Below are positions 6,001 to 9,000 of a stretch of 64,000 nt of DNA, piece after piece. Numbering within the stretch: the first letter of the stretch is position 1; every line of letters starts with the position of its first letter. Where the stretch lies: the NCBI RefSeq assembly GCF_041248615.1, contig NZ_CP158426.1, one strand, 5' to 3'. This DNA is from Escherichia coli. Lineage in GTDB: Bacteria; Pseudomonadota; Gammaproteobacteria; Enterobacterales; Enterobacteriaceae. Made by a program: the position numbers.

Positions 6001-9000
6001 TATGCTGTCAATTAAATCTCGTCGGAAAGCATTTTCCTCAACCGATTTCATTACGAGTAATTGCTTAATAAGAGTCTGTAACGAAAAATTTATCTTCATG
6101 CGCAGTATATGGAGCACCGCCTGGCCAGTAATTTCATATTTTGTACTTTCATTATCAGATGTCTTCATAACGACTTCATAGCTAACCTGTTAAATAATCA
6201 GGCTGTTGCATTATTCAAAAAGCAACCCAATTAGTGCATTATAATGTTTCTGTTCCTCTTCCCCTGTCGCTTGTTCCAGTCGGCATAGAAGTTTGGCACA
6301 AAGCGACTTTCGACTCAGATTACGTCCATCTTTCAAAATCTCAGTCACAATTTCCCCGAGAGTTTCCTGCTGAGTAGGCAAGTTAGCTTTTGCAAAGTAA
6401 CGAGTGATTGCTCCCGCAGAATCTAAAGTCACTGAATTTTGATGCATGCTACGCCTCTGTTAAAAATGTTAATCAATGTTAAGTGAGGTAACAATAGCAA
6501 ACTTGTACGAAATATGTGTACAGAATGATAAATTAATTTTTTGCATTTAGTGCTAATACATATAAAACAACAGGTTATGATAAAAAATATTGCATCATTT
6601 AAATGACAACCTATACAAAAATTTTCGCCAACTCATCTTCAACTTTTTCCATTTTTTATCAATGTAAAGAAACAGTTATGTTTTGGTATTAAAAGAAAGA
6701 CACCGGAAGATATGTCTGTTACCGTCTTACTCTCGCCTCTCCCATTACCCTGGACAGTTAATGCTTACCACCCTTATTTATCGTAGCCATATACGTGACG
6801 ACGAACCTGTCAAAAAAATCGAAGAAATGGTTTCGATAGCAAATCGCAGGAACATGCAGTCTGACGTAACAGGGATCTTACTGTTTAATGGTTCTCATTT
6901 TTTCCAGCTTCTGGAAGGTCCGGAAGAACAGGTTAAAATGATATATCGGGCTATATGCCAGGATCCACGGCACTATAATATTGTTGAGCTGCTGTGCGAT
7001 TACGCGCCTGCTCGCCGTTTTGGCAAAGCGGGAATGGAATTATTTGATTTGCGCCTGCACGAGCGAGATGACGTTTTACAGGCCGTATTCGACAAAGGCA
7101 CATCAAAATTTCAGCTAACTTATGATGACAGAGCGCTACAATTTTTTCGTACTTTTGTCCTTGCAACCGAACAAGCAACCTATTTCGAGATCCCTGCCGA
7201 AGACTCCTGGCTTTTTATCGCTGACGGATCTGATAAAGAACTTGATTCTTGTACCCTTTCACCAACTATAAATGACCACTTTGCCTTTCATCCTATTGTC
7301 GATCCCTTATCGCGGCGGATAATCGCTTTTGAAGCCATTGTGCAAAAAAATGAAGATAGCCCATCAGCTATAGCGGTTGGGCAGCGTAAAGACGGGGAAA
7401 TCTACAAAGCGGATCTCAAAAGTAAGGCGCTTGCATTCGCGATGGCACACGCACTTGAGCTCGGTGATAAAATGATTTCAATCAATCTATTACCTATGAC
7501 CCTGGTTAACGAACCTGACGCAGTCTCTTTTTTACTTGATGAAATAAAGGCCAATGCTCTGGTGCCTGAACAAATCATCGTTGAATTTACTGAAAGTGAA
7601 GTCATATCTCGGTTTGATGAGTTTGCAGAAGCGATTAAATCGCTTAAGGCTGCCGGTATCAGTGTAGCAATTGATCATTTTGGCGCAGGTTTTGCCGGTT
7701 TGTTACTCCTGTCACGCTTCCAGCCTGACAGAATTAAAATCAGTCAGGAATTGATTACCAATGTTCATAAAAGCGGGCCACGGCAGGCAATTATTCAAGC
7801 GATCATAAAATGCTGTACATCACTTGAAATTCAAGTCAGTGCTATGGGCGTGGCAACACCAGAAGAGTGGATGTGGCTTGAATCCGCAGGAATTGAGATG
7901 TTTCAGGGAGATCTGTTTGCGAAAGCTAAATTGAATGGTATCCCTTCCATAGCGTGGCCAGAGAAAAAATAATTTTCAGCACATTCTTTCACATGATTTC
8001 AGTAAATCATCGTGAAAATGAATACGTTATGTTTAAATTTAATCCACATTAAAAATAATGTTTCATCCAATTTAGCTGAAATCTTATTTATACTTTGTAC
8101 AATTTTAGCGTATATTGTACAAAGTATTATTGGGTCGTGTACAGGCGACGGAGATTTGTGACCGCAAGGAGGAATTGTGGCTTATTACAGCATTGGTGAT
8201 GTTGCTGAACGTTGCGGGATTAATCCTGTCACTCTCCGGGCCTGGCAACGCCGCTACGGTTTGTTAAAACCACAGCGCAGTGAAGGCGGACACCGACTCT
8301 TTGATGAAGAAGACATACAACGCATCGAAGAGATCAAGCGTTGGATAAGTAATGGCGTCCCTGTAGGCAAAGTTAAAGCATTACTGGAAACCACCAGCCA
8401 GGATACGGAAGATGACTGGAGCCGCCTGCAAGAAGAGATGATGTCAATTCTTCGTATGGCTAATCCTGCCAAACTACGCGCGAGAATTATTTCACTGGGT
8501 CGAGAGTACCCAGTAGATCAATTGATTAATCATGTTTACCTTCCTGTTCGCCAGCGTCTCGTGCTTGATCACAACACCTCCCGCATTATGAGCAGTATGT
8601 TTGACGGCGCATTAATTGAATACGCAGCAGCCTCGCTTTTCGAAATGCGCCGTAAGCCCGGTAAAGAAGCCATTCTGATGGCGTGGAATGTTGAAGAGAG
8701 AGCACGATTGTGGCTGGAAGCATGGCGTTTATCATTGTCAGGATGGCACATTTCTGTTCTTGCTGATCCCATTGAATCGCCGCGCCCGGAACTGTTCCCG
8801 ACGCAAACATTGATTGTCTGGACAGGCATGGCACCAACGAGAAGGCAAAACGAACTTTTACAACACTGGGGTGAGCAAGGTTATAAAGTCATCTTTCATG
8901 CCCCCTAATTTCACCTTTATCCCGCCCCTTAGACAGAATCTTATAATCTGAACCCACAACAGCGTTTGCACCGGAGCTGGTCCGTTGCAAAATGCTCACC

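What the first reader, a model, noticed from the sequence alone, without database searches (positions are those of the whole stretch)
8092..8125. Perfect 12-bp inverted repeat upstream of bluR, with a related motif in the ycgZ-bluF promoter
ACTTTGTACAAT-N10-ATTGTACAAAGT sits ~50 bp upstream of the bluR start, and a related TTGTAC...GTACAG element occurs at 6504-6524 in the divergent ycgZ-bluF promoter region. These are plausible MerR-type (BluR) operators.
Basis: seen in the sequence. Interest (0 to 1): 0.2.

Follow-up and report, generated by a model that had tools for sequence, protein, structure and literature searches.

The report
Conserved TGTACA operator at the bluR promoter
The perfect palindrome in front of the E. 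coli blue-light repressor gene bluR is very probably a binding site through which BluR shuts off its own promoter; a paired TGTACA element sits at the same place upstream of BluR-type genes in most enterobacterial genera examined, so this is a solid but incremental addition to a known circuit.

Summary
The inverted repeat has perfect 14-bp arms (8090-8103 / 8114-8127, ATACTTTGTACAAT-N10-ATTGTACAAAGTAT). It is the only inverted repeat in the 64-kb window with perfect arms of at least 12 bp and a spacer of at most 20 nt. About 1% of shuffled sequences give a 14-bp one.

The second element (6504-6522) is the BluR operator of the ycgZ promoter, already published with a footprint and mutations (Tschowri 2012).

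The bluR-proximal palindrome is not described in any paper I could read. The published bluR transcription start, 54 nt upstream of the GTG, falls at about 8123, inside the right arm. The two TGTACA cores therefore bracket the -10 hexamer.

- 56 of 69 BluR-type loci have TGTACA-N12-14-TGTACA about 80 bp upstream of the start codon (N13 in 48).
- 9 more have an N7 variant, like the ycgZ operator.
- All 12 MlrA-type comparison loci (11 clear orthologues) lack it.

The motif resembles the MlrA box (N12) and the class II LitR box (N12). The BluR DNA-binding domain and predicted fold match CarH/LitR best.

Best reading: a BluR operator giving negative autoregulation, relieved by BluF. Binding is inferred, not shown. 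Novelty: new member of a known kind. Interest is low to moderate.

The parts
8090..8103 (.). Left arm of the perfect inverted repeat (ATACTTTGTACAAT). Lies at -33..-20 relative to the published bluR start.
8096..8101 (.). Left TGTACA core hexamer (-27..-22), the conserved determinant.
8104..8113 (.). 10-nt spacer between the arms (TTTAGCGTAT). Variable among E. coli alleles. Contains the start of the -10 hexamer and a weak internal hexamer cGTATA (8109-8114) lying N7 from the left core.
8114..8127 (.). Right arm (ATTGTACAAAGTAT), at -9..+5. Contains the inferred transcription start.
8116..8121 (.). Right TGTACA core hexamer (-7..-2).
8087..8092 (+). Candidate -35 hexamer TTTATA of the bluR promoter (18-nt spacer).
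   Evidence: placement fits the TSS
8111..8116 (+). Candidate -10 hexamer TATATT of the bluR promoter, between the two cores.
   Evidence: fits the TSS
8123..8123 (+). bluR transcription start inferred from the published '54 nucleotides upstream of the translational start' (GTG at 8177). Uncertainty is +/-1 nt from counting convention.
   Evidence: (PMC3509220)
8138..8143 (.). Third TGTACA (+16..+21). Polymorphic (TGTAGA) in 4 of 5 other E. coli alleles sampled, so probably dispensable.
8177..8908 (+). bluR (ycgE) coding sequence, 243 aa. Domains: MerR_1 + MlrA_helical + MlrA_C.
6504..6522 (-). Published BluR operator in the ycgZ promoter. On the ycgZ strand it reads TGTACA-catattt-cGTACA (N7).
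6761..7972 (+). bluF (ycgF), the BLUF-EAL anti-repressor of BluR. Lies between the two operators.
6211..6447 (-). ycgZ, first gene of the BluR-repressed ycgZ-ymgA-ariR-ymgC operon.

Best explanation
The palindrome is an operator of the MlrA/BluR (CarH/LitR-like) branch of MerR-type regulators, laid over the bluR core promoter. BluR most likely binds it itself.

Proposed mechanism:
1. BluR subunits recognise the two TGTACA cores. These lie 20 bp apart centre to centre, roughly two helical turns and so probably on the same DNA face. They bracket the -10 hexamer and cover the transcription start.
2. Occupancy excludes RNA polymerase, so bluR is negatively autoregulated.
3. Under blue light or cold, BluF pulls BluR off DNA. 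This derepresses both the ycgZ operon and bluR itself, which replenishes the repressor and limits or resets the response.

What is shown:
- The sequence, its rarity and its position relative to the published start site.
- Conservation of the paired hexamers across genera.
- The resemblance to operators of related regulators.

What is inferred:
- That BluR is the binding protein.
- That binding represses transcription.
- The feedback logic.
For: 1. Rarity. It is the only inverted repeat in 64 kb with perfect arms of at least 12 nt and a spacer of at most 20 nt, with 1% of shuffles giving a 14-nt one. The only TGTACA pairs with up to one mismatch in the window are this site and the validated BluR operator.

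2. Promoter overlap. The published primer-extension start is 54 nt upstream of the start codon, which is about 8123. The promoter scan finds TTTATA-18-TATATT ending at 8116. The cores therefore sit at -27..-22 and -7..-2.

3. Phylogenetic footprint.
- 56 of 69 BluR-type loci from different genera carry TGTACA-N12-14-TGTACA with up to one mismatch. It starts 65-89 bp (median 80) upstream of the start codon. The hexamer columns are near-invariant and the flanks variable.
- 9 more loci have TTATACA-N7-TGTACA at the same place, which is the spacing of the ycgZ operator.
- Background is 28 pairs in 677 kb, and 22 of those lie about 1.5-1.7 kb upstream of bluR in ycgZ-linked loci, most of them in the ycgZ promoter.

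4. The element travels with the gene. It is present both next to bluF and at the bluF-less Erwiniaceae loci, where the upstream gene is divergent. It is absent from all 12 MlrA-type comparison loci, 11 of them 70-80% identical to MlrA.

5. Same recognition code.
- BluR protects GTACA motifs at PycgZ.
- The MlrA box at csgD is TTGTGCA-N12-TGTACAA, with an A-rich spacer like the bluR boxes.
- Class II LitR repressors bind T(G/A)TACA-N12-TGTA(C/T)A at promoters and are released by a LOV anti-repressor.

6. Protein family. The best PDB sequence match of the BluR DNA-binding domain is CarH/LitR at E about 4e-13. The predicted full-length fold matches CarH best at E = 6.5e-8.

7. Rationale for feedback. 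Elevated BluR is toxic to E. coli.

8. Within E. coli. Among five divergent alleles the arms are invariant while the spacer and flanks vary.
Against: - No binding or expression experiment for this site exists in the papers I could read. Tschowri 2012 does not mention autoregulation, and Tschowri 2009 was not available.
- The core spacing here (N14) differs from the validated BluR operator (N7), from the MlrA box (N12) and from most orthologous boxes (N13). How one protein would accommodate these spacings is unexplained.
- Promoter positions in the other genera are unknown. Conservation could partly reflect promoter elements.
- The within-E. coli invariance of the arms rests on only five alleles and is not statistically significant on its own.
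- Three genes I recalled as BluR-dependent (ybgS, ynaK, the yliL region) carry no such box. The motif therefore does not define a larger regulon.
Confidence: 0.65

Rival explanations
1. The site is bound by the paralogue MlrA rather than BluR. This would couple bluR transcription to the c-di-GMP-controlled curli module (cross-regulation).
For: The arms resemble the MlrA box TTGTACA-N12-TGTACAA. BluR and MlrA share near-identical helix-turn-helix motifs, and BluR shows cross-binding to the MlrA site at csgD. Erwiniaceae genes at the mlrA chromosomal position carry the box.
Against: The spacing is N14, not N12, and the A4/T4 outer flanks of the MlrA box are missing. From memory, and unverified, the MlrA palindrome was reported as unique to csgD. 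The box co-occurs with BluR-type genes and is absent upstream of the mlrA orthologues. A site over -10/+1 does not fit the upstream-activator mode MlrA uses at csgD.
Confidence: 0.12
2. The palindrome is the operator of an unrelated regulator. Candidates are the TetR-type RcdA, which binds the neighbouring bluF-ycgZ spacer, or a GntR-type protein recognising TTGTACAA-like palindromes.
For: RcdA sites contain TGTACA-like palindromes (TTGTGTACAttTGTACACAA at appY). RcdA footprints the ycgF-ycgZ spacer and activates ycgF.
Against: The RcdA box TTGTnnACA is not matched by either arm. RcdA genomic SELEX lists ycgF/ycgZ but nothing upstream of ycgE/bluR. The conserved N13 pairing tracks BluR-type genes across genera.
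Confidence: 0.07
3. The repeat acts as a nucleic-acid hairpin or cruciform rather than as a protein-binding site. Examples would be a terminator or insulator for bluF read-through, or a structure in the bluR leader.
For: It folds as a 14-bp stem in RNA and DNA (DNA energy -10.7 kcal/mol, z = -6.3). Outer flanks of the orthologous boxes are somewhat more self-complementary within a locus than between loci (mean extension 1.5 vs 1.0 nt).
Against: There is no U-tract and the stem is AT-rich; the terminator scan does not call it. The mapped bluR start lies inside the right arm, so the mRNA lacks the hairpin. The box is conserved in Erwiniaceae, where the upstream gene is divergent and nothing reads through. 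Across genera only the hexamers are conserved, not the pairing. No Rfam family matches.
Confidence: 0.05
4. The conserved hexamers are simply core-promoter elements (a TGTACA -35-like hexamer and a TACAAx -10-like hexamer), with no dedicated regulator. The perfect arms in E. coli would then arise by neutral template-switch homogenisation of a quasi-palindrome.
For: TGTACA matches TTGACA at 4 of 6 positions. In ycgZ promoters of other genera the N13-spaced third hexamer TGTATAAC looks like a -10. The long arms are lineage-specific.
Against: The right hexamer lacks the invariant final T of a -10; position +2 after the hexamer is T in only 4 of 48 loci. The published start in E. coli calls for the TATATT hexamer between the cores, not TACAAA. 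Near-invariance of all six bases in both hexamers exceeds normal promoter conservation.
Confidence: 0.08

Closest known systems
BluR (YcgE) operator in the ycgZ promoter (Tschowri, Lindenberg & Hengge 2012)
   Same: Same hexamer code (TGTACA / GTACA). Same locus. Overlaps a core promoter. The same repressor is expected. In the Enterobacter group the bluR-upstream element even has the same N7 spacing.
   Different: In E. coli the bluR-proximal cores are 14 nt apart rather than 7. They sit over the promoter spacer and -10/+1 rather than over -35 and the spacer. The arms form a perfect 14-bp palindrome. Binding has not been tested.
MlrA box of the csgD promoter, AAAATTGTACA(12N)TGTACAATTTT (Ogasawara 2010, as quoted)
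   Same: TTGTACA / TGTACAA inverted half-sites separated by more than one helical turn. The spacer is A-rich in most orthologous bluR boxes. The regulator is a paralogue with 48% identity.
   Different: N12 versus N14 here and N13 in most relatives. The outer flanks differ. The MlrA box is an upstream activator site, whereas this one overlaps the core promoter.
Class II LitR (PplR1/PmlR2) operators of Pseudomonas, T(G/A)TACA-N12-TGTA(C/T)A
   Same: Paired TGTACA hexamers over or next to a promoter. A MerR-type CarH/LitR-family repressor released by a flavin blue-light photoreceptor acting as anti-repressor. One member, pplR1, is itself among the light-induced genes.
   Different: The photoreceptor is LOV rather than BLUF-EAL. 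Spacing is N12. The C-terminal domains differ. The host is Pseudomonas.
CarH/LitR B12-dependent photoregulators (Thermus thermophilus CarH, PDB 5C8D/5C8E)
   Same: Best sequence match for the BluR DNA-binding domain and best fold match for the whole protein. Light-relieved repressors. From memory, they repress their own operons and recognise TnnACA-type repeats.
   Different: BluR has no demonstrated B12 binding and senses light indirectly through BluF. From memory, the CarH operator consists of tandem 11-bp direct repeats bound by a tetramer.

Membership tests
BluR operator (as defined at PycgZ) | TGTAC/GTACA half-sites | tested here: met
   Two perfect TGTACA cores at 8096-8101 and 8116-8121.
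BluR operator (as defined at PycgZ) | Half-site spacing as in the footprinted site (TGTACA-N7-xGTACA) | tested here: not met
   The main pair is N14. Only a weak internal cGTATA lies at N7, with 2 mismatches. N7 is found at the equivalent position in 9 Enterobacter-group loci.
BluR operator (as defined at PycgZ) | Overlap with the core promoter of the regulated gene | tested here: met
   The published start 54 nt upstream of GTG 8177 falls at about 8123, inside the right arm. The -10 TATATT at 8111-8116 lies between the cores.
BluR operator (as defined at PycgZ) | Binding by purified BluR and derepression in a bluR mutant | not testable with these tools
   No data were found in the held literature. 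Tschowri 2009 is not held.
MlrA box | TTGTACA-N12-TGTACAA with A4/T4 outer flanks | tested here: not met
   The half-sites are present, but the spacing is N14 and the flanks are ACT/AGT. The csgD box was verified as N12 in K-12.
Class II LitR / CarH-family operator | Paired T(G/A)TACA hexamers about 12 nt apart at a promoter | tested here: inconclusive
   Hexamers and promoter overlap are met. Spacing is N14 here and N13 in 48 of 56 relatives, against N12 in Pseudomonas.
Class II LitR / CarH-family operator | Cognate regulator belongs to the CarH/LitR family | tested here: met
   BluR's DNA-binding domain has its best PDB hits to 3WHP/5C8D CarH at E about 4e-13. The full-length model (pLDDT 71) best matches CarH at E = 6.5e-8, and its C-terminal half also matches B12-binding domains.
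Intrinsic terminator | G+C-rich stem followed by a U-tract | tested here: not met
   The stem is AT-rich and followed by UAUUGGGUCG. It is not called by the terminator scan.
RcdA box | TTGTnnACA | tested here: not met
   Neither arm matches. RcdA SELEX does not list the bluF-bluR spacer.
Known RNA families (Rfam 15) | Match at or above the gathering score | tested here: not met
   Only two chance-level hits in 5000-10000, and neither lies on the repeat.

The most novel reading that the evidence does not exclude
The TGTACA pair is the ancestral autoregulatory operator of the whole MlrA/BluR branch of CarH/LitR-like regulators.
- It is present at the mlrA-position gene of Erwiniaceae.
- It was kept by the BluR duplicate in Enterobacteriaceae.
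- It was lost from Enterobacteriaceae mlrA.

In E. coli it would close a negative feedback loop, making the BluF-BluR blue-light/cold response self-limiting.

A bolder variant is that CarH-like BluR oligomers bridge this operator and the ycgZ operator 1.6 kb away, looping out bluF.
Probability: 0.5. Interest if true: 0.4.

Novelty: new member of a known kind. Interest (0 to 1): 0.3.

Why it matters
BluF-BluR is the textbook case of a degenerate EAL protein turned light-dependent anti-repressor. It feeds into Rcs, curli and biofilm control.

A BluR operator on the bluR promoter would add a feedback loop to that circuit. This fits with BluR over-production being toxic. It would also give a second natural BluR site with a different half-site spacing, which is useful for working out how this CarH-like, coiled-coil-less MerR relative reads DNA.

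The comparative result also refines the published evolutionary scenario. The box sits at the mlrA-position gene in Erwiniaceae and at bluR, but not at mlrA, in Enterobacteriaceae. This suggests the ancestor was autoregulated through a TGTACA pair.

None of this overturns current understanding.

Tried and rejected
1. Terminator or RNA-hairpin reading. Rejected: there is no U-tract, the start site lies inside the right arm, and the box is conserved where no gene reads through.

2. RcdA as the binder. Its TTGTnnACA box is not matched, and its SELEX targets do not include this spacer.

3. Search for published BluR autoregulation or genome-wide BluR binding. Nothing found. Tschowri 2009 and Sumi 2020 are not held.

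4. Boxes upstream of ybgS, ynaK and the yliL/mntS region in K-12. From memory these were BluR-dependent in the 2009 microarray. None has a box, so this neither helps nor hurts.

5. mlrA upstream region in K-12 and in 11 orthologues. No TGTACA pair.

6. Covariation of the flanks. Only weak, so not used as support for a structure.

7. The third TGTACA (8138-8143) as part of the operator. Down-weighted because it is TGTAGA in 4 of 5 other E. coli alleles.

8. The structure model has modest confidence (pLDDT 71, pTM 0.47). It was used only for fold-family assignment.
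Full report
**Observation**

The window is an E. 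coli chromosome segment with the gene order pdeG, ymgC, ariR, ymgA, ycgZ (minus strand), then bluF, bluR, ycgX, ymgL, iraM (plus strand), then icd.

The reported repeat exists and is longer than stated. It has perfect 14-nt arms at 8090-8103 and 8114-8127, ATACTTTGTACAAT-N10-ATTGTACAAAGTAT.
- Each arm holds the 8-bp palindrome TTGTACAA. These are its only two copies in the window.
- It is the only inverted repeat in 64 kb with perfect arms of at least 12 nt and a spacer of at most 20 nt. First-order Markov shuffles produce a 14-nt one in 1% of trials.
- TGTACA-N10-16-TGTACA occurs only here, against 0.03 expected.
- The repeat ends 49 nt before the bluR GTG at 8177.

The second element, TTGTAC (6503-6508) and GTACAG (6518-6523), is also there.

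With at most one mismatch, TGTACA pairs at spacings of 7 or 12-14 occur in the window only at these two sites, against 0.39 expected.

**What is already known**

Tschowri, Lindenberg and Hengge 2012 (PMC3509220) mapped the BluR site on the ycgZ promoter by DNase I footprinting.
- They describe it as a direct repeat GTACA...GTACA overlapping a palindrome TGTAC...GTACA.
- It covers the -35 and spacer regions.
- It was validated by EMSA of point mutants and by derepression in vivo.
- On the ycgZ strand, window 6522-6504 reads TGTACAcatatttcGTACA, which is that site.

The ycgZ half of the finding is therefore correct but published.

The same paper reports separate transcription starts for bluR, bluF and ycgZ, at 54, 30 and 36 nt upstream of their start codons. 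It does not mention a BluR site at bluR or autoregulation.

I found no other paper in the held library that does. Tschowri 2009 is not held.

**Anatomy at bluR**

Counting 54 nt back from GTG 8177 gives a start at about 8123, inside the right arm. The consensus scan finds TTTATA (8087-8092), an 18-nt spacer and TATATT (8111-8116), which is correctly placed for that start.

| Feature | Window coordinates | Position relative to start |
|---|---|---|
| Left TGTACA core | 8096-8101 | -27..-22 |
| Right TGTACA core | 8116-8121 | -7..-2 |
| Left arm | 8090-8103 | -33..-20 |
| Right arm | 8114-8127 | -9..+5 |
| Third TGTACA | 8138-8143 | +16..+21 |

The cores are 20 bp apart centre to centre and bracket the -10 hexamer. 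A protein on both cores would occlude RNA polymerase.

The third TGTACA reads TGTAGA in four of five other E. coli alleles sampled. In those same alleles the two arms are invariant, while the 10-nt spacer and the flanks vary. With five alleles this is suggestive only.

**Comparative evidence**

An alignment of 16 BluR-type proteins retrieved 80 loci from one genome per species. These fall into two sets:

- 69 loci are BluR-type (54-100% identical to BluR). They comprise:
  - the reference E. coli locus;
  - bluF/ycgZ-linked loci in many Enterobacteriaceae, plus one in Pantoea coffeiphila;
  - bluF-less loci, mainly in Pantoea, Erwinia and Mixta.
- 12 loci form the MlrA-type comparison set. Eleven are clear MlrA orthologues (70-80% identical to MlrA). 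The twelfth, from Tatumella, is equidistant from both proteins.

Results for the 69 BluR-type loci:
- 56 carry TGTACA-N12-14-TGTACA with at most one mismatch. It starts 65-89 bp (median 80) upstream of the start codon.
- The spacing is N13 in 48, N14 in 4 (including E. coli) and N12 in 4.
- 9 more, in the Enterobacter group, have TTATACA-N7-TGTACA with the right hexamer at the same position.
- 1 has N10.
- 3 have nothing. In two of these bluF ends only about 65 bp before bluR.

None of the 12 MlrA-type loci has such a pair, and K-12 mlrA has none either.

Elsewhere in the 677 kb of fetched DNA there are 28 pairs. Of these, 22 lie about 1.5-1.7 kb upstream of bluR in ycgZ-linked loci, most of them in the ycgZ promoter. 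In most genera that promoter reads TGTACA-N7-TGTACA-N13-TGTATA.

In the N13 set all twelve hexamer positions are near-invariant. The inner spacer is A-rich, and beyond one flanking base the outer flanks vary. Outer-flank complementarity is only slightly above permuted expectation. The 14-bp perfect arms of E. coli are therefore a lineage-specific extension of a conserved pair of cores.

The bluF-less Erwiniaceae genes sit where mlrA sits in E. coli, convergent with yehW/yehX. They are nevertheless closer to BluR (about 65%) than to MlrA (about 55%). The simplest reading has three steps:
1. The ancestor of MlrA and BluR carried the box upstream of its own gene.
2. The BluR duplicate kept it.
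3. Enterobacteriaceae mlrA lost it.

**Relation to known operators and regulators**

- The MlrA box at csgD is quoted as AAAGTTGTACA(12N)TGCACAATTTT, with the idealised consensus AAAATTGTACA(12N)TGTACAATTTT. I verified it in K-12 as TTGTGCA-ataaaaaccaaa-TGTACAA. Its A-rich spacer resembles the bluR boxes.
- Class II LitR repressors of Pseudomonas bind T(G/A)TACA-N12-TGTA(C/T)A over or beside promoters. They are released by a LOV photoreceptor acting as anti-repressor, and pplR1 is itself among the light-induced genes.
- BluR has the Pfam domains MerR_1, MlrA_helical and MlrA_C.
- The best sequence match of its DNA-binding domain in the PDB is T. thermophilus LitR/CarH at E about 4e-13, ahead of canonical MerR proteins.
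- An AlphaFold model of modest confidence (pLDDT 71) matches full-length CarH best, at E = 6.5e-8. Its C-terminal half also matches B12-binding domains.

BluR is therefore a CarH/LitR-type protein, and the palindrome has the hexamer code of that family's operators. From memory, CarH lacks the rigid MerR coiled-coil dimer. If BluR is similar, flexibly tethered DNA-binding domains could explain the tolerance of N7, N12, N13 and N14 spacings. This is inference.

**Mechanism proposed**

1. BluR binds both cores over the bluR core promoter and represses its own transcription.
2. BluF, activated by blue light or cold, removes BluR from DNA, as shown for PycgZ.
3. This derepresses the ycgZ operon and bluR together.
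4. Newly made BluR then restores repression.

The toxicity of elevated BluR gives a rationale for tight feedback.

Confidence:
- That the element is a functional operator of an MlrA/BluR-family protein: about 0.8.
- That BluR is the binder and the effect is negative autoregulation: about 0.65.

**Rivals**

| Rival reading | Main evidence against |
|---|---|
| MlrA binding (cross-regulation) | Disfavoured by spacing, flanks and position |
| RcdA or another regulator | Disfavoured by motif mismatch and SELEX lists |
| Hairpin or terminator | No U-tract; start lies inside the arm; box conserved where the upstream gene is divergent; no Rfam match |
| Pure promoter element | Right hexamer lacks a -10 final T; start site calls for TATATT between the cores |

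**Verdict**

This is a new member of a known kind: an unreported operator for a known repressor family. Interest is low to moderate.

Noticed in passing
window 7680-7696 (+), inside bluF: TTGGCGCAGGTTTTGCC is a sigma-54 promoter-like motif pointing towards bluR. It corresponds to the published sigma-54 ChIP-seq site IS13 (TTGGCGCAGGTTTTGCT in K-12, 483 bp upstream of bluR; Bonocora 2015). The terminator scan flagged the same spot as a weak hairpin.
   Followed up: partly
It has only a poor partner hexamer (AGGACA at N12). It may be a lone half-site or chance.
   Followed up: partly
window 8138-8143: A third TGTACA lies 16 nt downstream of the right core (+16..+21). It reads TGTAGA in four of five other E. 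coli alleles examined.
   Followed up: yes
L011-L035 and similar Erwiniaceae loci, e.g. L023 3285-4735: BluR-like genes of Pantoea, Erwinia and Mixta occupy the mlrA chromosomal position (convergent with yehW/yehX). They are closer to BluR than to MlrA and carry the TGTACA-N13-TGTACA box. Upstream lies a divergent XRE-cupin regulator gene with its own TCTCATATATGAGA-type palindrome.
   Followed up: partly
L088 (E. coli 2018-11-1BCC), equivalent to window ~8090-8113: An IS1 insertion replaces the left arm and everything upstream of the right arm. This strain is a natural operator/promoter mutant of bluR that has also lost the adjacent end of bluF.
   Followed up: no
ycgZ promoters in L005-L063 (e.g. 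L009 ~2297-2330): In most genera the ycgZ promoter has three hexamers, TGTACA-N7-TGTACA-N13-TGTATAAC. Both the N7 and N13 spacings therefore occur at the validated BluR target. E. coli lacks the third hexamer.
   Followed up: partly
window 7967-8089: The bluF-bluR spacer upstream of the palindrome folds unusually well as RNA (the whole 7965-8180 stretch has z = -4.4) but has no U-tract. How bluF transcripts end is unclear.
   Followed up: no
window ~10240-10820 (L001 6937-8401): iraM is followed directly by icd, with no e14 prophage between them. From memory, K-12 carries e14 at icd, so this strain appears to lack it.
   Followed up: no
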